From: Chiloscyllium plagiosum
Lineage: Eukaryota
Length of the DNA stretch: 57,567 bases
Direction: 5' to 3'
Assembly (NCBI RefSeq): GCF_004010195.1
Contig: NC_057718.1
Location: 83,312,345 to 83,369,911 of the forward strand
The notes under the pieces were generated by a model. That model made no database searches, was not told the DNA's origin, and saw only the letters and a program-made list of their open reading frames with translations. Positions 1 to 50,900 of the stretch are shown one piece after another. The position numbers and the translations under genes are program-made. How positions within the stretch are numbered: position 1 is the stretch's first letter; each line of letters begins with the position of its first letter.

Positions 1-740
1 GCGCAGGTTTTGCAGTTCCTGCGGTGGCAGGGGAAGGTGCCAGGATGGGAGGGTGGGTTGTAGGGGGGGCGTGGACCTGACCAGGTAGTCACGGAGGGAA
101 TGGTCTTTGCGGAAGGCGGAAAGGGGTGGGGAGGGAAATATATCCCTGGTGGTGGGGTCTGTTTGGAGGTGGCGGAAATGTCGGCGGATGATTTGGTTTA
201 TGCGAAGGTTGGTAGGGTGGAAGGTGAGCACCAGGGGAGTTCTGTCCTTGTTGCGGTTGGAGGGGGTGGGTCTGAGGGCGGAGGTGCGGGATATGGACGA
301 GATGCATTGGAGGGCATCTTTAACCCCGTGGGAAGGGAAATTGCGGTCTCTAAAGAAGGAGGCCATCTGGTGTGTTCTATGCTGGAACTGCTCCTCCTGG
401 GAGCAGATACGGCGGAGGCGGAGGAATTGGGAATACGGGATGGCATGTTTGCAAGAGGTAGGGTGGGAAGAGGTGTAAGCCAGGTAGCTGTGGGAGTCGG
501 TGGGGTTGTACAAAATGTCAGTCTCAAGTCGGTCGCCACTGATGGAGATGGAGAGGTCCAGGAAGGGGAGGGAGGTGTCAGAGATGGTCCAGGCAAATTT
601 AAGGTCAGGGTGGAATGTGTTAGTGAAGTTGATGAATTGCTCAACCTCCCCGCGGGAGCACGAGGTGGCGCCAATGCAGTCAACAATGTAGCGGAGGAAG
701 AGGTGGGGAATGGTCCTGGTGTAATTAAGGAAGATCGACT
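1..740 (-). mobile_element. Penelope-like element (Neptune-type) fragment: RT C-terminal half, thumb and Cys linker; runs off the window start
   Basis: Minus-strand translation LFLRYIVDCIG...FINFTNTFHPDLKFAWTISDTSLPFLDLSISI...DSHSYLAYTSSHP...IPYSQFLRLRRICS, then PGTFPCHRRNCKTCA at ~1-45. These are PLE RT motifs, with catalytic YIDD altered to YIVD. Confidence 0.88.
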
Positions 741-1149
741 GTTTTTACCAAGACCATCTTCAGGGTCAACTCTGGTGCTAATTGTCAACTTATGGTCTCC
801 AACCTTTTAAGCCTGCTGTAACATTGTCTTAGGAAAAACAAATTCAATCTGACCCTTTCAATTCTACATTGCAATCTGTTGGATGTTGTTAGAAATTATG
901 TTTGTAAATTGGAACAGGGTAAGGGATAGTTATGATGCATGTTGTGTTTGAACAAACAATGAGCCTTTCTTCAGCTGTTTTGAAAAGACTCACAGTGACA
1001 AATCCATACACAGCAAGACTGGGACTGACAGACCTACAGCTTAGGGTCAGTGGTAGGAATTGTAGAGTATCTACTCAAAAGCTAGAATTGAACAATATAT
1101 GGAAACAAAATAAAAATGAAAAGCAGTCAACACAGATTCTAAAAAAAAA

Positions 1150-2054: not shown

Positions 2055-2476
2055 NNNNNNNNNNNNNNNNNNNNNNNNNNNNNNNNNNNNNNNNNNNNNN
2101 NNNNNNNNNNNNNNNNNNNNNNNNNNNNNNNNNNNNNNNNNNNNNNNNNNNNNNNNNNNNNNNNNNNNNNNNNNNNNNNNNNNNNNNNNNNNNNNNNNNN
2201 NNNNNNNNNNNNNNNNNNNNNNNNNNNNNNNNNNNNNNNNNNNNNNNNNNNNNNNNNNNNNNNNNNNNNNNNNNNNNNNNNNNNNNNNNNNNNNNNNNNN
2301 NNNNNNNNNNNNNNNNNNNNNNNNNNNNNNNNNNNNNNNNNNNNNNNNNNNNNNNNNNNNNNNNNNNNNNNNNNNNNNNNNNNNNNNNNNNNNNNNNNNN
2401 NNNNNNNNNNNNNNNNNNNNNNNNNNNNNNNNNNNNNNNNNNNNNNNNNNNNNNNNNNNNNNNNNNNNNNNNNNNN
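2055..2476. other. Assembly gap (422 N)
   Basis: Continuous run of N. Confidence 1.
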
Positions 2477-3179: not shown

Positions 3180-4020
3180 GGAATCCTGTGGCATTGTTTC
3201 CTATGTAAATGGAGAAAAACTGCAGAAAGCTGCAACAAAAAGGGACTTAAGGGTATTTGCATACAAAACACAGAAAGATGGCACACAGATGCAGCAGGTA
3301 ATCAGGAAAGTTCATGGAATGTTGGCCCTTATCTCAAGGCTGAAAATGTGTTGCTGGAAAACCGCAGCAGGTCAGGCAGCATCCAAGGAACAGGAGAATC
3401 GACGTTTCGGGCATAAGCCCTTCTTCTGGAACCCCTTATCTCAAGGGGTTGGAGTATAAGAGTAGGCAAGTATTACTGCAATTGTCAAGGCGCTGACGCA
3501 ACCACATCTGGAGTACTGTGCTCAGTTTTGATCTCTTTAGTTAAGAGAAGATATCACTGCTTTGGAGACAGAGAGGGGTTCACTAGGATGATCACCAGTA
3601 TGGGGTGACTCCAACCAGCAAAGGCTAAATAGGCTGGTCTACTCAGTGGAATTTGGAATAATGAGAGGCAATCTCATTGAAATATATAAGATTCTTCAGG
3701 GAAGTGACAGGGTAAGTGCTGAGAGATGTTTTCCCACTTGGGAGAGTCTAGGGCAGGAGACTTGAGATGAGGAGCAAATTCTTCTTTCGGAGGGTAGAGA
3801 GCCTTCCTTTGGGAGTTTGCCCCCACAGCTTTTTGTGGCAGAGTCCATGTGTATATTTAAGGCTAAGATAAATGGATTCTTTATCAGTCAGGGAATCAAG
3901 GGTTACGAAGAAAATGCAGGAAAGTGTACCTGAGGAATGTTGGATCGGCCATGATCCTTTTGAACAGCAGGCCAAGCTTGACTGGACAAATAACCTACAG
4001 CTGTTCCTATTTATCATGGT
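3180..4020 (+). mobile_element. Degenerate CR1 LINE 3' part, interrupted by a 93-bp insertion
   Basis: 'ccacatctggagtactgtgctcagttttg' (PHLEYCAQF), 'atgagaggcaatctcattgaaatatataag' (MRGNLIEIYK) and a CR1-like 3' UTR. Confidence 0.8.
3340..3432 (-). mobile_element. 93-bp PLE-terminus mini-insertion carrying a hammerhead motif, with a 14-bp TSD
   Basis: Exact direct repeats cccttatctcaagg at 3326-3339 and 3433-3446. Minus strand reads CAGAAGA-A-GGGC-ttat-GCCC-GAAA-CGTC (core U4 mutated). Confidence 0.85.
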
Positions 4021-4284: not shown

Positions 4285-5170
4285 TAAAAGCAAAATTCTG
4301 CAGAAGTTGAAAATCTAGAAGTGAAACAAAAATGGTGGAGAAAGTAAGTATCTGTGGGGAGAGAAACAGAGTTATATTTAGAGGCTGATAGGACATTTTT
4401 TGTGCATTGACAGAGAGTGAGGAGGAACAGATGGTGGTGGTGCCCAGAGCAAAGGATGAAGGGAGTGCTGATGCTGGGAAAAAGAATTATATCTCTGCTG
4501 AGAGAAAAGCAAACAAGTCAGAGTAGGAGAGTTGTTGTGGTTGTAATCTGAATGGAGAACAGGTCATTCTCTGAGGTTGCTGAACTCAAACGTATTGAGT
4601 CCTAGAGAACAAAGTATTTAAATGAAATTTGAGATGTTTCACCTGCTTGTGTTGAATTGAACACTAGCAGATCTAGCATAGGAATGTTAGCATGTGAGCA
4701 AAATGGTTAATTGAAATGACAAGCAATTGTAAGTTCAGGGTTATTCCTATAGACAGAGTGGAGGCACTCTGCAAACTGGTCACCAAGTCTGCATTTAATC
4801 TTACAAATGTGAAGGAGACTGCGTTATCAGCAATGAATCCGGCAGACTACATTGAAAGAAGCACAAGTATTTGGTGGTGGTACCCTGCTGAAGATGTTGG
4901 AAATACATGGTGATCCTTCGAATGTAAGGAGAAGGGGAACCCACCATTGTTTCAGTAAGGAGGAGATGAGGACAGAGTGCAGAAAGTGGGTAAGATATGG
5001 CTGAGGGTCCTGTCAACCACATGGGGAAAGGTATAGATCCTCAATGAGGAAAACGGAGATGCTGTTGGAAGTACCCTAATGAAAGATGAAAGGAACAGAT
5101 GCAACAGAGACAGAAAAACTGGGAGAATGGAAGAGTCCTTGCAGGAATCAGGGTGTCAAGAAATGTAGCC
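4285..5170 (-). mobile_element. Old, degenerate Penelope-like element 3' region
   Basis: Colinear similarity to the better-preserved PLE at 20765-22118 (tail, GIY-YIG region, thumb). Confidence 0.55.
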
Positions 5171-7140: not shown

Positions 7141-9774
7141 TCTATTCCTCCTCTCTATAATCAGGCACAGAACTGTATTGTATAAAACAATTATGTGAAA
7201 AAGCAAAACATTTATTATTGTAAAGGATTCTGGATAATCCAAGACATAAGATGGGAAAAAGTTGTGGCTATAGAGCTGCCCCTTTATTGAGGTATTTTCA
7301 GTGTTGGAGCTGATGTCCTCAAATTCTGTGGGCAATAATTACTGCTTTTTAAGTTGTTGCATTGTTTTGGAACTTGGGAAAAAAGAATCAAAACAATGGC
7401 ACCTTAAAAAGGAGGAAGACAAATAAAGGGCAGTGACCACGTGGGCAGTGTTTCAAATGGAGAAAGAAATCTACACCGCTGTCTGACCCAGCAGTAACCT
7501 GCGCAGATCCTGTCTTTACTGTCTGTTTTCAAGTATCTCTGGACGTCAGAGTTCATTCTAAGAAAATTAAACAAACTGCTAAATTCATAGCTGACCTTGA
7601 ATACAGTTACAGCATTTAATAGGTTGACAGAGATATGGATCAAATGTTGGGAAATAGGACTAGATTTATTGAGGGTATCTGGTCAGCATAGCTGAGTTGG
7701 ACCAAGATATCTCTATGACTCTAGGCAATGGCCCTCAATGTCAAAGCAGCTGAACAGATCCTCCCCTGTTGTGACACTCAGCTTGTCCAGGTTTCGCTAT
7801 ACTATCTCCTCCACAATCTACCAACCAGAATCGGCCTTTCAAACCATACAACACCATGACTTTCTGCCCTTAGAAAGGTAAACATTAAGAGAGATAAAGG
7901 ACAAGGGGAAAAGGACAATGAATTGGAATGCAATTAACACCCATGTTCAGGAAAATGAAAAGAATACAGTATAGCTTCTTATCCTAGAATGTGAGACACA
8001 ATCAGGTTCCACATCAATCCTGTTATCTTTAAAAAGTTAAAACATTTAACTTTTTTAATCATATGAACCAGTACATTCATCAGTTAAAAACGAAAGGAGA
8101 CAACTGTAGCGATTCTAATTTGGATTCCTTCTGGTATTATTTGTTGGCTGGTCAATTATTGTTTTTGTATTTCATTAATTGGCCCTCGATGTTACAGGGA
8201 ATAGAAAGCAAAGGGCCTGTACTGTGCTGAAATGTTCTACGCTCTATTGGAGCTCCAAATATTTATATTCATATTCTCTTGTTATTTGACAAAAATAATT
8301 CAACTGCACAAGTGATGTGATATTGATCTATTGGTGATGAATGCTGGAGATTATCTAATTCAGGAGTTCTCAACTTTTTACTTCTGAGCAAAGCTCCCTC
8401 TAAGCCACGCAGCTGCTGAGATATGCTAAATACATGCACACTGACCCCTAGGTGGGCACAGCAAAAAAGCAATTAGAGGAAACATGCTTCTGAGAATTCC
8501 TCCTCCCGAGGAAAAAATTAAATCCACAGAACCCATGTAGCACAATGCACTTATTACCCCTATATAAAAATTAGTTATGCAATTATGCATTTATTATTTT
8601 TCTTTTACTTAGTATTATGAAACTTGTTGGTCAGCACTAGAAACATTTAAAAACAAGACATATAGCCACATGTAGGATACATTATTTGTGCTGAATTATG
8701 TTTTTGTGTTTTTTTGTGAAAATTATCTTGCTCTTACTGAGTTACTTTGTTGTGATCTGCAAAGTACAGTACATTAGCAAACTATCACACTGCAGTTAAT
8801 AAGCTACGACCAAAGCTGGTACAGTTCCAAAGATGCTAGAGTGCATTAAGTTAAGTTAGTAGATTGATACAGATTGCTAGACCTATTATGAAAATGAGAC
8901 AATAATTTAAAGTAGAGTAACGTCTGCTTGAGTTGGTTGACTTGTTGTGAAGGTTGGTAGAGATATACTTAAATTATTGGGCTAATGTTGAAAGCGTCAA
9001 TCTGCTAGGAGTACTAATGAGAACAAAGCAATCCTGCTGAGGCTGGACATCATCCCCTTGACAATATGGTGGACCAACGGCAATGAGCATCTATATTTAT
9101 AAGATAGTTTCCACAGTAAGCCCAGGAGTCATTAAGCAATGTTCCTGTGGCAGACAACGCAATTTATTAATATTGGTAGACATCATAAATCTTCTTCGCA
9201 GATGTCTTGGCAACAGTGGAATCCCAGTTAAAACTTCCCTGGTCTAATTTATACAAGTGATACAGGAAGTCACAATTCATTGGGACTCAATTTACCTCCC
9301 TCATAAATTCAGTCTAAAATTAATAATTAGGCACAAACTACACCCTCACAGAAAATGGGGTGCTTGACCAATTAAATTCCACACACATAATTTAGCATCA
9401 ATAGCAAAACAGGGACACCCATTCCTTTGAAACTGAACTATGATGCCTGATCTTGACAAAATATTAACAAGCACATCTAGAAAGAGGCAGTTCATTACTA
9501 CTGTCATAAGCACTAATTGCATTATATCAATTGTAGTTCAGCAAGCACATCTCAAAAATTAATTTGTTCAAGGAAAAAGGATATGAAAGTCGTGGGAACA
9601 TACTGTAATCACAACATGAGAACTACTATTTTGTGGAAAATAAACACAAACAGAATTTTTCAGCTGTGTGCCGTTACTGTAACCAGGCAGACTAAATGGA
9701 GGCTGTTCGGCTCATGAGCAATCAATTAGTTCCATTATATTAACCTTTTCCTGTAGTCTGCAAACTGTTTCAGG

Positions 9775-10061
9775 TAAAAACAAGGACTGCAGATGCTGGA
9801 AACCAAAGTCTAGATTAGAGTGGTGCTGGAAAAGCACAGCAGGTCAGGCAGCATCCAAGGAGCAGGAAATTCCACGTTTCGGCAAAAGCCCTTCATCAGG
9901 AATAAAGGCAGGGTGCCTGCAGAGTGGAGAGATAAATGAGAGGGGGGTGGGGTGGGGAGAAAGTAGCATAGACTACAATAGGTGAATGGGGGTGGGGCCA
10001 TGGGGTTGAAGTGTTCCGAGGCGGAAGATGAGGCATTCTTCTTCCAGGCGTCAGTTGGTGA
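9775..10061 (-). mobile_element. PLE 3' end (pseudo-LTR with hammerhead motif and tail), internally deleted
   Basis: Minus strand ATTC-CTGATGA-AGGGC-tttt-GCC-GAAA-CGTG-GAAT followed by '...ccagcatctgcagtcc' tail; same unit as the copies at 3340, 26855 and 27718. Confidence 0.85.
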
Positions 10062-17566: not shown

Positions 17567-17977
17567 CTAAACAGAAAAATGCATTATTTCAGCAAGCACG
17601 AACATGTTGACAGAATTGGTCCTGAAAACACTAAGGTTTAATGTTACATTGCAGAGGCAGCCTGAACCCTCCTAATCACAAACTTAAAAAGGGTGCCCTA
17701 TGACAAGGTACTGTTTACCTTCCTGAGTGTCTACCTTAACACTGACAGGACCTTCAAAAACAAAAACCTATCAAGTTAATCTTCTAGTTGCCAGATTGTA
17801 ACACAGCTTCATTTATGTTCCAGAAAAATGGAAAAGCTAAGACTCTCAATAATGATTAAGATGCGAATTGTCCAGTGTTAATGCTTCTGTTCTCATCTCA
17901 ATGGATGCTTTGTTGCTCCATTTCTTTCCCTAATTAGGAATTCAGGACATAATGCTGATGCAAAATATGACTAGAGA

Positions 17978-18100
17978 CAAAAAAAACCTGCAGATGCTGG
18001 AATCCAAAACAGACAAGCAGGAGGCTGGAAGAACACAGCAAGTCAGGCAGCATCAGGAGGTGGAGAAGTCGACGTTTTGGGTGTAACCCTTCTTCAAAAT
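17978..18100 (-). mobile_element. Isolated PLE terminus (mutated hammerhead motif plus tail)
   Basis: Minus strand TTGAAGA-AGGGT-taca-CCC-AAAA-CGTCGAC...ccagcatctgcag; related to the 9775 unit. Confidence 0.75.
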
Positions 18101-18494
18101 GTGACAGCAATCATACAGAAAAGCTAAAATTTAAAGATGGCTCAGCAATTTCCAGAACAGATTCACCATCCACCAAAATGATGTCAACTAGATTAAAGCC
18201 CAAGGACTGGAAGTAGAAGGGGCAATGCTCTGTTCCCAACATGAAATGTATCAACATCCCAATATTTAAGTCAGACTGAAGATAAACCAGTGGCTTCTGC
18301 AGCTGTGGGCAGATACAAGACTGTGACCATAGAAAATAACATGGCCACATTTTATGGAACAAGAAAATCTGAATAGGTCAAAAAGTATCTTCAAAAGGAT
18401 AACTCTTTTGGGAGGCAAGTATAAACTTATAAGGCAGGGGAATGGGAACCACTGCTTTAATCATCTTTTGGTTTTAAAAGTTAAAAATAAACAT

Positions 18495-20620: not shown

Positions 20621-20764
20621 TTGAATTCTTAAATGGTGAGTGGTGATAAATGTTGCCCAATCTGCCCCTCATTCAATATACAATGCATGCATCACCATGA
20701 CATAAAACTCTCAAAGACTCAGATTGGAAATGAAAAACGATCACTTGGACAAGATATTAGAGAA

Positions 20765-22621
20765 GCTCAGCAGGTCTGGCAGCATCTGCTTAAAGAAATC
20801 AAAATTTAACGTTTTGGGTACGGTGACGCTTCCTCAGAACTGATTGTAGCTCGGAAAATGTCTGTTTATTTGCAGCAGATAGGATGGGAAGGGGTTAAGA
20901 AGTGCCAAAAGGTAGGGATACAGCCCAAAGAGAGAGCAGAACAATTGGACAGACAAGTCGATAATGATCTGGCTGGGAGGGTGAATAGATATTAAATGGA
21001 GACTGTTAGTGGCTAACAATAGGTAGTAACAAGGCCTGGTGTGTGGGGTAGGGGGCTAGGTCATGGGGAGTTTAGGCCCAAAGATTATTGAACTTGAGTG
21101 GCTGTTCTTCCAGCTTGTGCTGAGCTTTGTGCAGCACTGCAGCAAACATGAGACAGAGATGTTGCCTCGGGACCAAGGTGGTGCGTTAAAGCTGCAGGCA
21201 ACTGGAAGGTCAGGGTCTTTTCTGCAAAGTGGTCATCCAGTCTATGCTTCGTTTCCCCAACATAGAGGAGACCACATTGTGAGCTGCAAATGCAGTGGAC
21301 TAGATTGTGAGAAATCCACGTAAAGTGCTGCTTTACCTGGAAGATATATTTGGGCACTTGGATACGGACGAGGAAGGAAGTAAATGGGCATGTGTTACAT
21401 CTTTGGCGGTTGTAAGGGAAGGTGCAATGGGGCTGTGAGGTGGTGTTGGGAAAGAAGGAATAGTGGGCCAGGGTGTTGTGGCGGAAACAGCCCCTGCGGA
21501 AGGGGCCAAGGGAGGGGAGGGGAATGTGTGTCTGGTGGTGGCAGAAATGGCTACTGATGATCGTCTGGATGTGGATGCTGGTGGGATGGTAGGTAAGGAC
21601 AAGGAGAACCCTATCACTGTTGCAGGAGGGAACAGAGGGGGTTAGTGCAGACGTGCCTGAGCTGGGTCAGACCCAGTTGAGGGCCCTGTTGACAATGGTG
21701 CTGGGGAATTCAAGGCTGAAGGTGGTGGACATTTTGGAGGCTCCCTTGTCGAAGTTGGCTTCACTGCAACATATGCGATGGAGACCGAGGAACTGGGATA
21801 ATGGAATGGATTCTTTGCAGGAAACAGGGTGCGAGGATGTATAGTCCAGGTAGCTGTGGGAGTCGATGGGTTTATAGTGGATATTAATGGTTAGTCTATC
21901 CCCAGAAATGGAAACAGATATGTCAAGGAAGGGAAGGGAGGAGTCAGAGATAGATCAGGTGAAAGTGAGGGTAGGGTGAAATTGGAAGCAAAATTGATGA
22001 ACTTTTCCAATTCTAGATGAGAGGAGGAAGCAGCACTGATGATATCATCGATATTTTGGAGAAAGAGTTCTAGCTGCGGGCCAGAGTAGGAACTGGAACA
22101 AGGAATATTCTATGTATCCAGTGCTCCAGCAAAGCTCAGTGCAAGCTAGAAGAACATCACCTCATTTTCTGCTTGGGGACCCTGTACCCCTCCAGACTCA
22201 ATATCAAGTTCAATAATTTTAGGGCCTGAATTTCCCCATGTCGTAGTCCCCCAACCACACACACCCCGCCTTTTTAGAGTCTGCCATTACCCACTACCTA
22301 TTGTTATCCACTAACAGTATCCATTAACAGCTATTCACCCTCCCAGCCAGATTGTTATCGAATCCTTTGTGTGTGCAACTGTTCTTCTCTCTTTGGGTTC
22401 TATCCTCACCAATCGTTTACTCCTTAACCCCAACCCCCCGACCCTATCACCTGCATACAAAACAACTTTCTCCTAGCATCAGTTCTGAGGAAGGGTCACC
22501 AGATCCAAAACTAAGTTGACTGAGTTCTCTTCACAAAAGCTACCAGAATTGCTGAGTTTTTCCAGCAACTTCTGTTTTTGTTTCTGATTTACACCAACCA
22601 CAGTTCTTTTGGTTTTTATTC
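20765..22621. mobile_element. Penelope-like insertion with inverted architecture (minus arm ~20765-22118, plus arm ~22119-22621) and a 13-bp TSD
   Basis: agatattagagaa at 20752-20764 and 22622-22634. Minus arm has RT thumb and GIY-YIG (CSSQCGLLYVGETKHRL). Plus arm has KLEEHHLIFCLGTL...LNIKFNNF*, 3' UTR, a decayed hammerhead motif and tail. Confidence 0.88.
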
Positions 22622-23051
22622 AGATATTAGAGAACTCTTGGCATCTGTAAAAATCACAGAACTCAGGAACCTCAAGTCAGAATGGGGGAATCAACTGGAA
22701 ATAGATGATGATTTATATTCTAAATTAAGTTTAAAGAAAAGCAGAACTGGTCTTTCAACCTTAAACTTTTTCCAGCATTATGTTGCTTTGAAAACAAATT
22801 GTCGAGTTATCCAAAGTTATTAAATTTCACACCCATGCTCAGGGCAAATTAAAAGAAAGATGCTTGATACAATGGAAAGCTGAAATCAAAATGTTTCAGC
22901 TACGTCTATTTGTATTACATGAAGATGAATAACTGGCGAAAATTCAAACACTTTGCTGGTAATGGAAAAGTCTTACCAGCCCTATCATGAGAGCCTTCCA
23001 GGCATCTCTTTCGTTGTTTAAAGACTTAGTCTTCTATCTCACTGTCATTAC

Positions 23052-25965: not shown

Positions 25966-26854
25966 TTAAGTGAACTGTGAACATTCTGCCACTACTTAAT
26001 AAAACCATCTACATTCATTACACTTTAAATACTGTTATAAAGTGATTGAACAAGCAACCAAGAGAGTTGGTTAAAGCCTAGTCATGGAACTAATGAAGAA
26101 TCTGAGAAACTAGGGCAGAAATGGCAAATGAGTGTGAAAGCATATGCAACTGCAAAAATGAGTGCGCACAAGAAATGGGGTATGCAAGTTTACATGCTAG
26201 AATGAAAATGTGGAGTGTAAATGAGCATATGCAAAGCAGCATATTGGAGGCAGTTGTTAAGTGTGACAAAGAAAGCAACAGCATGCGTAACTACAAAATA
26301 AAGTGACACACAAATTCGAGAGATAAGCATGTAGAGTGAATAGGTGCACTAGAGTACAGAAATAAAAATGTGCAATAATACATTTGCATATGCAGAAAAG
26401 GCAAGTCCAAATGGACAAAAGACTACATGCACATAAACAACATTAGGAGAATCTACATATATGGAAGGACATGAGGACAGGATAGAATTGTTCCTATTGC
26501 CAGAATTTAGGCTCAAGTGCGAAAGATATTAAATAAGGCCAAGATATCAAAGTGTACTAATGTGGTTATGCAATTATACCAACAATAATTCATATTCTAA
26601 GAATAGGCAAGAGATAATTTTAAAAAGTGAAAACGATTCAAAAACTCCATTTACTTACTTTGTAGTAAACAAGGAACGAACAATTTTCAATTTTCTGCTA
26701 TCTTCATGTAAAATGATTTTAGTGCTGAAAAACCTACAGTGGCAGCATTACCTTTCATTTTTATATTTTCTCTGGCTGAACCATTCAATAATTGTACCAA
26801 GATTTCATAAAGTTAAAAAAGGGAGAGTGTAATCCTGGTAACTCTCAGTATTGG

Positions 26855-27068
26855 AAAGTATGGCACTGGAAGAGCAGAGCAGGTCAGGCATCATCCGAGG
26901 AGCAGGAGAATCAACATTTCAGGCATAAGCTCTTCATCAGGAATGATAAAGGGCTTATGCCTGAAACTTTGATTCTCCTGCTCTTCAATTGCTGCCTGAC
27001 CCGCTCAGCCTTTCCAGTGCCACACTTTTCGACTCTGAGCTCCAGCATCTGCAGGCCTCACTTTCTCC
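26855..27068. mobile_element. 214-bp PLE-terminus insertion forming a long hairpin, with a 15-bp TSD
   Basis: aactctcagtattgg at 26840-26854 and 27069-27083. Arms 26855-26939 and 26944-27028 are imperfect reverse complements around a 4-nt loop; tail at 27029-27068. Confidence 0.9.
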
Positions 27069-27717
27069 AACTCTCAGTATTGGCATATTCAATATATCCC
27101 ACACCAGATAATTAATTATGATAGTGTAGCAACCATGAAATAATACAAAATATTAAATGTACAATTTATTACACATTAATCTGGAGAATTTTCTTTAAAT
27201 TGCTTCCCTTCTATTTTTGTAATGCCTTTGCTCAAAACTTCTCATTCAGTTTTGCAATCCTACTTCAGATTCCAATTACTTTGGAATTTCAGCAATGTAA
27301 TTTCCTCTCATTTTAGCTTACAATTTTAATGTGCTAAACTGGTAAACAATTTCTCAGTCATTACATTTAATTTTCATTGGCTTAATATTGGTAAAATGAA
27401 AGTAATTTTTTTTATTTCAACTAACAACCATACGGTTCTTGCTCCAACCCCATTAACACCGTTACTAACACACTGTTTGGCAAGACGACAGCATCCCACT
27501 TAACTGGAAGCTCACCTATTAATAACTGTGATCTGGTAATCCAATTAGCATCCTTCTGTTCCATAAAATTTATAGATTCAGTACTCTGCTCACCAATATT
27601 TATTTCTCCAAAGTTCAAGTGGGTGCTAGTGCAATTATCAGCACCATCAGATTGGTTAGTAAGTACTACCCAAGCACAGAAACACATCTAATCTTGGTCA
27701 ACATATTCTGAGTTTTG

Positions 27718-27811
27718 AGCTGAAAAATGTGTTGCTGGAAAAGCGCAGCAAGTCAAACAGCATCCAAGGAGTAGGAGAATCGACGTTTCGGGCATAAGCC
27801 CTTCTTCAGGC
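27718..27811 (-). mobile_element. 94-bp PLE-terminus mini-insertion with an intact hammerhead core and a 14-bp TSD
   Basis: tattctgagttttg at 27704-27717 and 27812-27825. Minus strand CTGAAGA-A-GGGC-ttat-GCCC-GAAA-CGTC. Confidence 0.88.
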
Positions 27812-27859
27812 TATTCTGAGTTTTGTAAACATAGGCTCAATACAGCCAATACACTAACT

Positions 27860-31505: not shown

Positions 31506-32069
31506 TTGTTGCTCCCTATGCAATTTCACACTGTTGTAATTCAGTCCTAATAGTGCAAGACAAAAATATTTGACATCATGTATTTTTCTTTGACAATGTA
31601 TAAGTTGTCTATTTGCAAGTGACTAATTGCGATGCTCATTTTATTTACAAAATCACATCAAACATACAGTATGAGGGATTCTATTCAGTTTGTGACTTTT
31701 TTTTAAACTGCACATCTATGGTAACTGCCTTAAGATTGAACACATTCCTTAGAGTGGAGCCATGGACCATGGAATGTTCCTATGTGTAACAATCAAGATA
31801 TGTATCTTCAAACTTCTCTCAGGCTGACACCACTTTATCAAAACAATTTTCTCCTCTCTTATGAACCAGACCATATATCTTTGACTTATAGACCAGAGGT
31901 AAGTCATTAGACTTCTTTCACCCTACTGCAATTCTCAATGACTTAAAGTGTCCCTCAAAGTATCCTACTTTTACCATGCTTTACAATTCATCTTGAATTC
32001 AAAATCTATGAATGTTTCCATGCAGAGTGTCTGAAGACATTCCTTTAATCTGGGCTGCTATGTGTAACG

Positions 32070-32762
32070 CCAGGTTATAGTTCGTGTGTGTGAGTGTGAG
32101 AGAGTGTGTGTCTGTGTGAGAGAGTGTGTGTCTGTGTGAGAGAGTGTCTGTGTGTGTGTGCGTGTCTGTGTGTGAGAGTGTGAGTGTGAGAGAGTCCGGG
32201 GGAAGGCAGCTGAGAATGCAACAGGCAGATGGAGGCAGGGGTAACGGTGATAGGTCGGACAGAGAGCAATGCCGAGCCAGAAGGCTTGAACTGGGACAAA
32301 ATAGGGGGAAGGGAGACAAGGAAACTGGTGAAGTCCATATTGATGCTGTGGGGTTGGAGAGTCCCAAGGCGGATGATGAAGTGCTCTTCCTCCAGACGTC
32401 AGGTGGTTAGCAATTAGCGATGGAGAAGGCCCAGGACCTGCATGTCCTCGGTGAAGGGGGAAGGGGAGTTGAAGTGTTCCGCCACGAGGCAGTGGGGTTG
32501 GTTGGTGCAGGTGTTCCGGAGATGTTCTCTGAAGCACTCTGCAAGTAGGCATCCAATGTAGAGGAGACCACATTGGGAGCAACGGATATAGTAAATGACA
32601 TGTGTGGAAATGTAGGTGAAACTTTTATGATGTGGAAGGCTCCTTTGGGGCTTTGAACGGAGGTGAAGGGGGAGGTGTGAGTGCAGGTTTTGCAATTCCT
32701 GCAGTAGCAGGGGAAGGGTTAACTTTGTCCACCCCAGTCCAACACCTGCACCTCCAAATCAC
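32070..32762. mobile_element. Composite PLE insertion: inverted pLTR stub, (GT/GA)n tract, minus-strand GIY-YIG fragment, plus-strand tail
   Basis: 'ccaggttatagt' stub as at 44590. Minus translation FTYISTHVIYYIRCSQCGLLYIG (GIY-YIG). Tail 'aactttgtccaccccagtccaacacc'. Confidence 0.78.
32084..32194. repeat. Compound (GT)/(GA) microsatellite
   Basis: gtgtgtgtgagtgtgagagagtgtgtgtctgtgtgagagag... Confidence 0.95.
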
Positions 32763-44579: not shown

Positions 44580-45208
44580 GTTAAAAAAGCAGGTTATAGT
44601 CCAACAGGTTTAATTGGAAGCACACTAGCTTTCGGAGTGACACTCCTTCATCAGGTGATAGTGAAGAGCTCAATCCTAACACAGAATTTACAGCAAAAAT
44701 TTACAGTGTGATGTAACTGAAATTATACATTGAAAAATTGATTGTCTGTTAAGCCTTTCATCTGTTAGAATAGTGATAGTTTCACTTCTTTCATGTGTAA
44801 ATCACAACCTTTTTTTTAAAACAGTTGCATTCTCGGGTTAGCTGTTAACAATGGTGATAGCTAGACAATGTGTTGAAAGTATTAGCCCCCTGTGTTCTCT
44901 GTCTATGCCATGATGTTTAGATTGATTCTAATCAACGGAGTTCCACATGAATGCATGCAGTTTTTGAGAAATGTACAATGTAACCCTGCAAGTACAAATT
45001 CACCCCACAAAATGTGTGCGCGTATGTGGGTCTTTGTCTGTCTGTGTGTGTGTGTCTGGGTTGGGGGTTATGTGTGTGAGAAAGTGTGTGTGTACAGTGA
45101 GTGCAGAGTGTCTTAAGTCTGTGAGGGGATGCATGTGTGAGTGTCTGTAAGGGTGTGTGTGGGTGTTTGTGTGCGCGTCTGTGTGTCCATGTGTATATGT
45201 GTATAGGA

Positions 45209-45251
<43 letters not shown>

Positions 45252-45323
45252 CGTCGCTCTGAAAGCTAGTGTGCTTCCAATTAAACCTGTTGGACTATAA
45301 CCTGGTGTTGTGTGATTTTTAAC
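44580..45323. mobile_element. Second-family PLE 3' region bounded by inverted pLTRs, containing a (GT)n tract
   Basis: 44591-44640 is the reverse complement of ~45250-45303 (ggttatagtccaacaggtttaattggaagcacactagctttc); gttaaaaa/tttttaac outer ends; (GT)n at ~45030-45249. Confidence 0.85.
44623..44657 (-). ncRNA. Minimal type I hammerhead ribozyme motif, core intact, on the MAP4K3 pre-mRNA strand
   Basis: CAC-CUGAUGA-A-GGAG-uguca-CUCC-GAAA-GC-UA^-GUG: helix I CAC/GUG, helix II GGAG/CUCC, palindromic AGCU in place of helix III. Confidence 0.72.
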
Positions 45324-46322
45324 CCTTGATTCCACTATCCTTCTGAGCTCTATCCATCTCTTTCTTGAAAGTATCCAGAGACTTGGCCTCCACCGCCTTC
45401 TGGGGCACAGCATTCCATATATCCACCACTCTCTGGGTGAAGAAGTTTCTCCTCAACTCTGTTCTAAATGGCTACCCCTTATTTTTAAACTGTGTCCTCT
45501 GGTTCTGGACTCACCCATCAGCGGAAACATGCTTCCTACCTCCAGAGTGTTCAATCCTTTAATAATCTTATGCGACTTAATCAGATCCCCTCTCATCCTT
45601 CTAAACTCAAGTGTATACAAGCCCAGTCGCTCCACTCTTTCAACATATGATAGTCCCGCATTCCGGGAACTGACCTTGTGAACCTACACTGCACTCCCCC
45701 AATAGCCAGAATGTCCTTCCTCAAATTTGGAGACCAAAACCGCACACAATACTCCAGGTACAGTCTCACCAGGGCCTTGTATAGCTGCAGTAGGACATCT
45801 TTGCTCCTATACTCATTTCCTCTAGTTATGAAGGCCAGCAAGCCATTAGCTTTCATTGACTGATGTTAAAGAACACTGCGATCTCGTTGTACTTCCCCTT
45901 TCCCCAACTTGACTCCATTTAGATAGTAATCGGTCTTCCTGTTCTCGCCAAAGTGGATAGCCACACACTTATCCATATTAAACTGCATGTTCCATGCATC
46001 CGTCCATTCACCTAGCCTGTCCAAGTCACCCTGTATTCTCATAACACCCTCCTCACATTTCATCCTGCCACTCAGCTTTGTGTCATCAGCAAATGTGCTA
46101 ATATTGCTTTTAACACCATCATCTATATCATTAATGTATACTGTAAACAGCTGCAGTCCCAGCACCGAACCTTGTGGTACCCCACTGGTCACCGCCAGCC
46201 ATTCCAAAAGGGATCCGTTTATCACTACTCTTTGCTTCCTGTCAGCCAATCAATTTTCAATTCAAATCAGTATTTTGCCCCCAATACCATGTGCGCTAAC
46301 TTTGCTCACTAATCTTCTGTGT
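45324..46322 (-). mobile_element. CR1 LINE RT fragment
   Basis: VTSGVPQGSVLG, INDID, FADDTKL, WNMQFNMDKC, LYKALVRLYLEYCVRFWSP, RRMRGDLI. Confidence 0.95.
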
Positions 46323-49428: not shown

Positions 49429-49674
49429 ACAAGCGAACCTGCAACATAAGCAACACTTCATTTTTAAAATTATTGTGAAAAGGGAATCATTAAGTACATA
49501 ACCGGAGAATTCAGAAGGTCCAGATTCAAGTCTCATGTGCCCCAGAGGTGTGCCATAATATGTCCAAACAGTTTGATTGAAAATAAGGGTCTTGTAATGC
49601 AGCAGTAGCATCCCGATCTCTAAACAAGTAGTTCTAGGTTCAAGTCCCACCTGCCCCGACAAAACTATGATCAA

Positions 49675-50160
49675 TAAAAACCAAAAGAACTGCGGATACT
49701 GTAAATCAGAAACAAAAACAGTAGTTGCTGGAAAGGTTCAGCAGGTCAGGCAGCATCTGTGAAGAGAAATCAAAGTTAATGTTTCAGGTCTGGTGACCAT
49801 TCCTCAGGACTGTTAAGAGCTATGAAACGTCGGTTTATATGCAGAAGATCGGTTTGGGGAAGGGGGGCAAGGGTAAACGATAGGTATGGATAGAGCCCAA
49901 GAGAGAACAGTTGAACAGACAAAGGAGTTGAGCACGATCTGGCTGAATTGCTATTAATGGAGACTGACAGTGGCTAACAATAGGGAGTGGGTAATGGCAG
50001 ACCATATAATAACAAGGCCTGGTGTTTGTGTGGTGAGGGACTAGGACATGGGAAAGTTCAGGACCTGAAATCATTGAACACGATATTGAGTATGGAGGGC
50101 TGCATAGTGCTTTTTCAGTTGGAATCCACATGGGGAATGCCTGAGCCAGAGACAATTACT
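49675..50160 (-). mobile_element. PLE 3' end, same family as 20765-22621
   Basis: Tail, decayed hammerhead motif (CTGAGGA-ATGGTC-acca-GACC-TGAAACATTA) and 3' UTR matching 20765-21100. Confidence 0.8.
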
Positions 50161-50429: not shown

Positions 50430-50900
50430 TCCTTGCAGTCATGAATTATCCAATGAAGCTCAACCTAAGTTTGAGAAACAACATCTCACTTTACGGTCTA
50501 TCCAAACCAAGCTCAACTTTAGACTGTAATCCCTGCCCAACTTTATTTTCTTTTCTTTGCATGTTACGATATTACTTGTTTTTACTTTCAGACAGCCATT
50601 CATCTTTCTGCCATTTATTCCTTCCATGAGTTTTTTTTTCTTTACTTGTACCTGTGCTCTCTTTACTCTGAACAGCTGTTTTGTCATTTGGTTTCTCTTG
50701 TACTCTATTCTATCACAGATCTTCCCTTTTGTTCTTTTCCCACCCATTTTAAAACTCAATCTGTTAATTTCTAACTATTCTAGCTCTGAAAGATTATCAT
50801 TGAAAATATTCATAGTCTCCCCAGATGCTGCCAGATCTAAATATTTCCAGTAGTTCTACCTTTATTTCCAATTTCCAGTATCCACAGTATTTGGCTCACA
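50430..50900 (+). mobile_element. Old PLE 3' end
   Basis: 'taagtttgagaaacaacatctcact' (compare KLEEQHLIF), pyrimidine-rich UTR, 'cagatgctgccagatct...atttccagtatccacagtattt' tail. Confidence 0.55.

What the first reader, a model, noticed from the sequence alone, without database searches (positions are those of the whole stretch)
3326..3446. 93-bp hammerhead-bearing mini-element with a clean 14-bp TSD, nested in a CR1
Seen: an exact 14-bp duplication flanks 93 bp made only of a PLE pseudo-LTR piece, from the hammerhead core to ...acattttcag, with no ORF, no 3' tail and no poly(A). The CR1 resumes across it, so it is a discrete later insertion. Its ends and TSD length nearly match the independent copy at 27718-27811. 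Inference: a fixed-size unit is being mobilised (a retrozyme-like or MITE-like PLE derivative), not randomly truncated.
Basis: partly seen in the sequence, partly recalled or inferred. Interest (0 to 1): 0.7.

Follow-up and report, generated by a model that had tools for sequence, protein, structure and literature searches.

The report
Shortest footprint of a Penelope retroelement
This 93-base insertion is real, but it is most likely the shortest product of an ordinary Penelope-like jumping gene, copied from a fixed internal start point back to the front of its RNA, and not a new self-spreading mini-element.

Summary
Observation confirmed: a 93-bp insert (3340-3432, minus strand) between exact 14-bp duplications, in a CR1 that runs on across the site; 27718-27811 is a 94-bp sister with its own 14-bp TSD. 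It is the hammerhead-bearing end module of a Neptune-type Penelope-like element (PLE) in cartilaginous-fish-like DNA. Its hammerhead core is mutated (U4 to A). Ends are not random, but no dedicated unit is needed. The 3' end is the known tail-less PLE end, set by internal reverse-transcription starts (Frangieh 2024). The same module also occurs with tail, with body, folded back and cut shorter, and a 1.86-kb PLE insertion here has a 13-bp TSD. Retrozyme and MITE tests fail. The unexplained part is the 5' pile-up at the hammerhead's front edge (4 of 11 window ends). An initiator match there and an extra G in both solos hint at run-off from a capped RNA start, like a strong-stop cDNA. RNA reads showed no start there (weak test). 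This scan noted the same pattern before on other pieces of this genome. Known kind; modest mechanistic lead.

The parts
3326..3339 (.). Left copy of the 14-bp target-site duplication (CR1 sequence); its last base also matches the first base of the family tail (1-nt ambiguity)
   Evidence: loose ends lie before 3339
3340..3432 (-). 93-bp solo PLE end module, tail-less and body-less
   Evidence: 87% to 9820-9902, which is joined to a PLE 3' region and ORF end
3397..3432 (-). Minimal type I hammerhead motif: helix I 5' strand 3432-3429, core 3428-3422 (U4 mutated to A at 3427), 4-bp helix II 3420-3409, GAAA 3408-3405, palindromic CG, predicted cut between 3401 and 3400
   Evidence: features as in PMC4209133
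3432..3432 (-). First base of the insert is a sense-strand G that matches neither the family base (A) nor the target flank; candidate cap-derived or mutated base
3433..3446 (.). Right copy of the 14-bp target-site duplication
3201..3700 (+). Old CR1 ORF2 fragment that hosts the insertion (bounds are those supported here; it probably runs further)
   Evidence: collinear with 45854-45561 from 3306 on; multi-copy depth from 3201
27704..27825 (-). Sister solo: 94-bp insert 27718-27811 with exact 14-bp TSD, intact core, 2 nt of tail, extra sense-strand G at its 5' end; 92% identical to the first copy
26840..27083 (.). Fold-back insertion of a related subfamily: tail-less arm plus tailed arm meeting at the hammerhead's front edge; exact 15-bp TSD
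17961..18105 (-). Body-less but tailed solo of a third subfamily (about 125 bp), starting at the hammerhead core; 11-bp TSD with one mismatch
9774..10050 (-). Related module with tail, upstream 3' region and the last codons of a PLE endonuclease ORF (internal deletion); no clear TSD
20752..22634 (.). 1.86-kb compound inverted PLE insertion (arms of about 1.33 and 0.5 kb; RT end, CX2-5CxxC linker, GIY-YIG region; tail at one end only) with exact 13-bp TSD; comparison locus

Best explanation
The insert is a dead-end product of an ordinary endonuclease-bearing, Neptune-type Penelope-like element. The PLE protein cut the CR1 target with a stagger of about 14 bp (shown by the TSD). It started reverse transcription inside its RNA at the proximal, tail-less start site (3' end shown; cause inferred from the Anolis PLE in vitro). 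It copied about 93 nt back through the hammerhead and ran off the 5' end of the RNA, which I infer begins at or near the A four bases before the core, the first base of helix I (inferred). Two fixed points give a fixed size, like a retroviral strong-stop cDNA that integrates. Starting at the distal site gives the roughly 130-bp tailed form; read-through templates, template jumps and fold-backs give the longer forms. Hammerhead cleavage is not involved in making the ends. The tail-less copy lacks the sequence downstream of the start site that the protein probably needs, so it probably cannot spread itself (inferred).
For: PLE identity: 87% match to 9820-9902, which lies downstream of a PLE ORF end; related proteins come from cartilaginous fishes and hit Pfam GIY-YIG weakly (5 of 6, best E 3e-4, all below the curated cut-off); window bodies carry the CX2-5CxxC linker of Neptune/Nematis. 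Tail and body exist for this module: in RNA run X21, 407 reads go on past 3339 with the tail as consensus (agreement 0.72) and 546 go on past 3431 with a body-like consensus (0.46); my rough mixture estimate is 65-72% tailed and 25-29% sharing one body. Two internal RT starts define the tail, cleavage is dispensable, and the template needs sequence beyond the start (PMC11167929). TSDs of 13-15 bp are shared by long, fold-back and solo insertions. 5' pile-up: 4 of 11 ends, P 0.005 to 3e-6 under geometric truncation (post hoc). The 5' end lies about 32 nt before the predicted cut site, so it is not a cleavage end. YYANWYY initiator match with its A at -4 in 4 of 6 arms that keep upstream family sequence, from two families with different letters; background 16 of 1025 positions. 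Both solos carry an extra sense-strand G at the 5' junction, a known mark of cap copying in L1/SVA (PMC3287187). In 6 of the 12 joint rows shown (of 222) the arm leaves at 3431 with the family's -4 base next, and 4 of those 6 continue with the letter that is G on the sense strand (table 5c; two of the four could be templated by the other arm).
Against: RNA run X21 showed no place where many molecules begin or end (table 6); a poly(A) single-cell library read at about 2% is a weak test, but it gave no support. The two solos start at -4/-3 and -2/-1, not at one base, and the G in this copy replaces the expected A, so it may be a mutation. AG dinucleotides after pyrimidine-rich stretches lie 10-23 nt upstream of the core; if these are splice acceptors, the true start would be further upstream, as in Drosophila Penelope. 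The -4 base is also constrained by helix I pairing, and the initiator test is post hoc on related copies. The E family has no initiator match. The in vitro mechanism is from a Poseidon-clade element, not Neptune. No genome was available to count copies, and contig data are biased towards short copies with unique flanks.
Confidence: 0.55

Rival explanations
1. Same parent PLE and same fixed 3' start, but the 5' pile-up comes from the RT stalling or dropping off just after the hammerhead (structure, bound protein, or strand pairing that favours second-strand priming or fold-back there), not from an RNA 5' end.
For: The edge coincides with the first base of helix I; fold-back centres and a microhomology junction fall at the same edge (26940-26948, 18095); splice-acceptor-like signals upstream suggest a longer RNA; no RNA start seen. 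In this subfamily the core box can pair with the last bases of the module.
Against: Stalls usually occur before a structure, not after it (general knowledge); helix I is only 2-4 bp; initiator match and extra G are not predicted; the end-to-end pairing has z -0.37 in this copy and -2.07 in the sister.
Confidence: 0.2
2. A non-autonomous, body-less master of about 130 nt or more (hammerhead to tail and a little beyond) is transcribed on its own and mobilised in trans by PLE protein, SINE-fashion; the 93-bp copies are its tail-less products. This is the form of the first reader's idea that survives.
For: Body-less copies are common (4 of 11 ends; tailed solo at 17961-18105); only about a quarter of RNA reads crossing 3431 share one body (rough); non-autonomous PLE derivatives are described (MRC1, PMC8557442; bioRxiv 2026.07.22.740005).
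Against: The same module has a body in reads and contigs; several unrelated subfamilies show the same edge, which points to a shared mechanism and not to one master; no subfamily-level test was possible.
Confidence: 0.17
3. A retrozyme monomer (self-cleaved, circular RNA intermediate) or a MITE-like DNA element.
For: A hammerhead motif is present; some joints in run X16 link positions 3386, 3413 or 3431 to 3339, which may be head-to-tail dimers (kind of joint not given); weak end-to-end complementarity in the sister copy (8 of 10).
Against: No tandem array in the window; ends do not fall at the cut site; the motif is minimal, not canonical; the possible dimers have varying junctions as PLE partial tandems do; this copy has no terminal inverted repeat (4 of 10); a 14-bp TSD does not fit common MITE superfamilies (general knowledge).
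Confidence: 0.04
4. Ordinary random 5' truncation; the match of the two copies is coincidence.
For: Shorter and longer ends exist: arms of 0.15-1.3 kb in the window and joints at 3380-3413.
Against: 4 of 11 ends in a 10-nt stretch (P at most 0.005 across the models tried); 6 of 12 shown joint rows leave at one position.
Confidence: 0.04

Closest known systems
Solo minimal hammerheads of truncated Penelope-like elements (Cervera and De la Pena 2014, PMC4209133; parts 1-2 of 4 read)
   Same: Minimal type I motif in the pLTR with an unpaired base after A9, G10.1-C11.1, palindromic 15.2-16.2 and a short helix I; most motifs occur as single elements attributed to truncated PLEs; reported in fish Xena, Poseidon and Neptune elements.
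   Different: Helix II is 4 bp here (7-8 bp in schistosomes); no shark is named in the parts I read; a pile-up of insertion ends at helix I is not described there.
Poseidon PLE of Anolis carolinensis, PAc (Frangieh et al. 2024, PMC11167929; parts 1-2 of 4 read)
   Same: Hammerhead followed about 100 nt later by two internal RT start sites whose spacing is the optional tail; insertion ends fall on those sites; cleavage not needed.
   Different: Different clade (linker here is Neptune/Nematis type); the paper does not map the RNA 5' end or report fixed-size solo products.
EN+ PLE insertion units with pLTR, inverted copy and one-sided 30-40-bp tail (Arkhipova et al. 2013, PMC3846280; Craig et al. 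2021, PMC8557442; passages read)
   Same: Inverted arms, one-sided tail, TSDs, partial tandems; all seen among the window's other copies.
   Different: Rotifer TSDs are 8-10 bp and the solo pLTRs noted there lacked TSDs; here solos have clean 11-14-bp TSDs.
Metazoan non-LTR retrozymes (Cervera and De la Pena 2020, PMC7229834, passages; Li et al. 2026, bioRxiv 10.64898/2026.07.22.740005, parts 1-3 of 5)
   Same: Non-coding, hammerhead-bearing, related to PLE pLTRs; dispersed monomers exist.
   Different: Retrozymes are tandem repeats, mostly 150-450 bp with canonical hammerheads, expressed as circles; this is a solo with a minimal, mutated motif and PLE-type ends.
Retroviral minus-strand strong-stop DNA (recalled; no call)
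   Same: Fixed-length cDNA from an internal priming site to the RNA 5' end: the analogy for how the size is set.
   Different: Here priming is by nicked target DNA and the product is integrated; analogy only, not membership.

Membership tests
EN+ Penelope-like element (fragment) | Terminal module linked to an RT plus GIY-YIG ORF | tested here: met
   Indirect: 87% sister at 9820-9902 lies downstream of an ORF end matching GIY-YIG-bearing proteins (E 5e-4 to 0.04 in the window search; Pfam hits below cut-off); 20752-22634 holds RT end, linker and endonuclease region with a related module. The ORF of this exact subfamily was not seen.
EN+ Penelope-like element (fragment) | Minimal hammerhead in the pLTR | tested here: met
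   Anatomy and covarying helices I and II across families A/B, D and E; core mutated in this copy
EN+ Penelope-like element (fragment) | Optional 30-40-bp tail; no poly(A) | tested here: met
   Tail absent here, present in sister copies and in RNA reads that run past 3339
EN+ Penelope-like element (fragment) | Inverted and partial-tandem insertion forms with TSD | tested here: met
   Fold-back with 15-bp TSD, compound with 13-bp TSD; opposite-strand joints in three DNA runs
Neptune clade | CX2-5CxxC linker before GIY-YIG and RT phylogeny | tested here: inconclusive
   Linker seen in window bodies at about 21423, 32715 and 44; shared with Nematis; no tree built; not shown for this subfamily's own ORF
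Non-LTR retrozyme | Tandem repeats with at least two consecutive complete hammerheads | tested here: not met
   No such array in the window; a few possible dimers elsewhere with varying junctions
Non-LTR retrozyme | Canonical, cleavage-competent type I hammerhead | tested here: not met
   Minimal motif, U4 to A, no Rfam match
Non-LTR retrozyme | Monomeric linear or circular RNA bounded by the cut site | tested here: inconclusive
   One poly(A) single-cell run, no end pile-up; unsuitable library
MITE | Terminal inverted repeats | tested here: not met
   4 of 10 in this copy, 8 of 10 in the sister
Non-autonomous PLE derivative (SINE-like master) | Body-less copies form their own lineage | not testable with these tools
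   No genome held; no copies in metagenome or viral collections

The most novel reading that the evidence does not exclude
Shark Neptune-type PLE RNA begins, capped, at the first base of its hammerhead, and the PLE integrates the run-off cDNA from its internal start site as a strong-stop-like unit of 93 or about 130 bp in very large numbers. These solos would then map both ends of the first step of PLE retrotransposition in vivo, and place the ribozyme where self-cleavage would remove the cap.
Probability: 0.45. Interest if true: 0.55.

Novelty: new member of a known kind. Interest (0 to 1): 0.3.

Why it matters
As an object it is one of many dead PLE end fragments. Its value is as a mechanistic footprint: how PLE pseudo-LTRs, tails and solo hammerheads arise, and what the hammerhead does, are open questions. 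If the 5' edge is the capped RNA start, thousands of such solos give a cheap genome-wide test (end histogram, untemplated G), and the ribozyme's place at the very front of the RNA suggests a decapping or template-selection role. The probable absence of the insert in a close relative also makes it a usable presence/absence marker.

Tried and rejected
Whole genome not held, so no genome-wide end plot. Rfam scan: no hammerhead; only two weak miRNA matches on the fold-back and one chance CRISPR match. Exact-motif scans of metagenome and viral contigs: 0 matches each. Run search: no RNA holder listed on record (no evidence either way). Pfam on the 36-aa window fragment: 0 families; on five first hits: only an unrelated GPCR domain in a mis-joined gene model. 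Earlier-note look-ups by sequence, by 'near' and by cap-related words were empty. Self-cleavage as the source of the 5' end rejected: the predicted cut lies about 32 nt inside. Splicing as the source rejected: acceptor-like AGs lie 10-23 nt upstream of the core, not at the edge. The exact 107-nt skip in run X16 (3 contigs) is not counted as an orthologous empty site: depth 133 and no cover of the unique flank point to CR1 paralogues. A special fold of the 93-mer is not supported (z -0.37). Literature searches that found no description of this shark family or of ends piling up at helix I: (open-access library only; Repbase and Dfam not searchable; supplements of the 2014 paper not opened and those of the 2026 preprint closed; both may list shark families).

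Full report
Observation. The window holds an exact 14-bp direct repeat at 3326-3339 and 3433-3446 around 93 bp, and a second exact 14-bp repeat at 27704-27717 and 27812-27825 around 94 bp; the two inserts are 92% identical. Of 1500 random window positions, 2 gave an exact flanking repeat of 14 or more at this spacing. With the insert removed, the flanks align across the junction to a CR1 paralogue at 45854-45561. So this is a discrete insertion into an older CR1. It is young: the TSD copies are identical, and among the 40 difference rows shown (of 132) only 3 positions inside the insert differ from the majority letter in run X1. In run X11 (organism B), one contig matches 3433-3650 with 2 substitutions and 3 gap letters and starts exactly at the first base of the right TSD, with its first 46 letters unplaced (table 8). 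That is what an empty orthologous site predicts, but the joint row itself is not among the 15 of 263 shown, so I call it probable.

Anatomy. On the minus strand the insert begins with a minimal type I hammerhead: four bases of helix I, the core box, one unpaired A, a 4-bp helix II, GAAA, a palindromic CG, and a predicted cut between 3401 and 3400. These features match the minimal hammerheads of PLE pseudo-LTRs (PMC4209133, parts 1-2 of 4). Helices I and II change in compensating ways among three families in the window. In this copy U4 of the core is mutated, so it is not expected to cut. Rfam does not detect the motif.

Parent element. The insert is 87% identical to 9820-9902, which has a tail downstream and, upstream, a 3' region and the last codons of an ORF. 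A 36-aa ORF end from a related window family retrieved 7 proteins; the five that I looked up gave four cartilaginous-fish gene models and one unnamed record. A second search from one of these gave six longer proteins from rays and unnamed-gene sets, 5 of 6 with weak Pfam GIY-YIG hits below the curated cut-off. These proteins align to window bodies that show the RT end, a CX2-5CxxC linker and the endonuclease region, and to 9997-10050. The linker marks Neptune and Nematis PLEs (PMC8557442, passages). I did not see the ORF of the exact subfamily, so the clade call is indirect. The host looks like a cartilaginous fish; I did not identify it further.

Is a fixed-size unit being mobilised? The 3' end first. 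PLEs start reverse transcription at two internal sites; the stretch between them is the optional tail, genomic ends fall on these sites, hammerhead cleavage is dispensable, and the template must extend beyond the start site (PMC11167929, parts 1-2 of 4). In the window, the three tail-less ends of the A/B module lie within about 8 nt of each other, and tailed ends lie about 35-40 nt further. In RNA run X21 (2,397 reads laid of 12,955,460 read, both orientations, probably read-through of many genomic copies), 407 reads go on past 3339 with the tail as consensus at agreement 0.72. A rough two-part mixture puts tailed copies at 65-72% of those reads, and 42-47% of the 267 reads clipped at 3343. 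In DNA contigs the consensus fades after 7-11 tail letters, but contigs with long loose ends favour short copies with unique flanks. So the shared 3' end is standard PLE behaviour, and the tail-less form is not the only one. TSD length is also generic: 13 bp for a 1.86-kb compound insertion at 20752-22634, 15 bp for the fold-back at 26840-27083, 11 bp with one mismatch for the tailed solo at 17961-18105; three other loci gave no clear TSD.

The 5' end. I counted 12 hammerhead-bearing arms in the window (11 if the fold-back counts once). Four of 11 begin within about -6 to +3 of the core; five carry 0.15-1.3 kb of body, one begins inside helix II and one is too decayed to place. Under geometric truncation with mean lengths of 60-1000 nt, 4 of 11 in a 10-nt stretch has P of 0.005 to 3e-6; the stretch was chosen after seeing the data. 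In one search, 44,536 contigs of run X1 were laid on the 501 bases, nearly all on the insert, so the wider family is very abundant (summed depth is no copy number). Reads and contigs that go on past 3431 give a weak body-like consensus (agreement 0.46 in RNA, 0.33-0.34 in DNA). Joints show arms cut at 3380-3413 and opposite-strand fold-backs. So ends are spread, with a real mode at the hammerhead's front edge.

Mechanism. The edge is not the ribozyme cut, which lies about 32 nt inside. I favour run-off from the RNA 5' end. The sequence from -6 to +1 fits the initiator pattern YYANWYY (pattern recalled), with its A at -4, in 4 of 6 arms that keep upstream family sequence, from two families with different letters; background is 16 of 1025 upstream positions. 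Both solos have a sense-strand G at the 5' junction that matches neither family nor target; such G's are attributed to copying of the cap in L1 and SVA (PMC3287187, passages). Six of the 12 joint rows shown (of 222) leave at 3431 with the family's -4 base next, and four then show the letter that is G on the sense strand; two of the four may be templated. Against this: no RNA start was seen in X21 (table 6; weak library); the solos do not start at the same base; the G here replaces the A; -4 is also held by helix I pairing; and acceptor-like AGs 10-23 nt upstream would fit a 5' intron and an upstream start as in Drosophila Penelope (PMC2377424 passages). Shown: insertion, TSD, PLE origin, clustered ends. 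Inferred: internal priming here, RNA start at -4, inability of the tail-less copy to spread.

Comparison. It is a member of the class of truncated EN+ PLE end fragments with a solo minimal hammerhead. It fails the retrozyme tests (no tandem array; minimal mutated motif; ends off the cut site; definitions from PMC7229834 passages, and the 2026 preprint, parts 1-3 of 5) and the MITE test. A body-less tailed master mobilised in trans remains possible and needs a genome-wide tree. My searches found no paper on this shark family or on ends piling up at helix I; repeat databases and supplements were not seen. Earlier agents of this scan reported the same pattern and the RNA-start reading on other pieces of this genome; I treat those as leads, not support. 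The initiator match and extra G are my additions and are weak.

Verdict. A correct observation of a known kind of sequence, with one modest, testable lead on PLE mechanism. Interest 0.3.

Noticed in passing
window 20752-22634: Compound inverted PLE insertion of 1.86 kb with an exact 13-bp TSD; arms of about 1.33 kb and 0.5 kb, tail on one end only.
   Followed up: partly
window 26840-27083: Fold-back PLE end with 15-bp TSD; it gives weak false miRNA matches in Rfam (mir-577, MIR2118).
   Followed up: partly
window 44585-45325: Inverted PLE of a different family (E) with an intact-looking minimal hammerhead at 44654 (5-bp helix II) and a (TG)n-rich body; no TSD found, no initiator match.
   Followed up: partly
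window 32050-32715: PLE ORF end and 3' region joined to a (TG)n-rich stretch and a piece like the family E 3' end; possibly a chimera or deletion between two PLE families.
   Followed up: no
window 27718-27811 and 3340-3432: In this subfamily the hammerhead core box can pair with the last bases of the module, closing the 93-mer as one domain and hiding the core (z -2.07 in the sister, -0.37 here); not seen in other subfamilies.
   Followed up: partly
window 9903-9925, 22470-22484, 20838-20855, 49808-49825: AG dinucleotides after pyrimidine-rich stretches 10-19 nt upstream of the hammerhead core in two families; possible 3' splice sites of a 5' intron as in Drosophila Penelope.
   Followed up: partly
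window 3382-3341: An ATG 18 nt after the predicted cut opens a frame through the end of the module; may be the start of the PLE ORF, as pLTRs of rotifer PLEs hold the first codons. The same frame has a stop in the 9774 copy.
   Followed up: no
window 3-744, 4605-4892, 49673-50104, 50786-50888: Further PLE fragments of various ages; PLE sequence is dense in this window.
   Followed up: no
P0003 (XP_078266213.1): A skate neuromedin-U receptor gene model ends in a PLE endonuclease C-terminus; probably a gene-prediction artefact.
   Followed up: no
window 2055-2476 and 53521: Runs of N (422 bases and 1 base).
   Followed up: no
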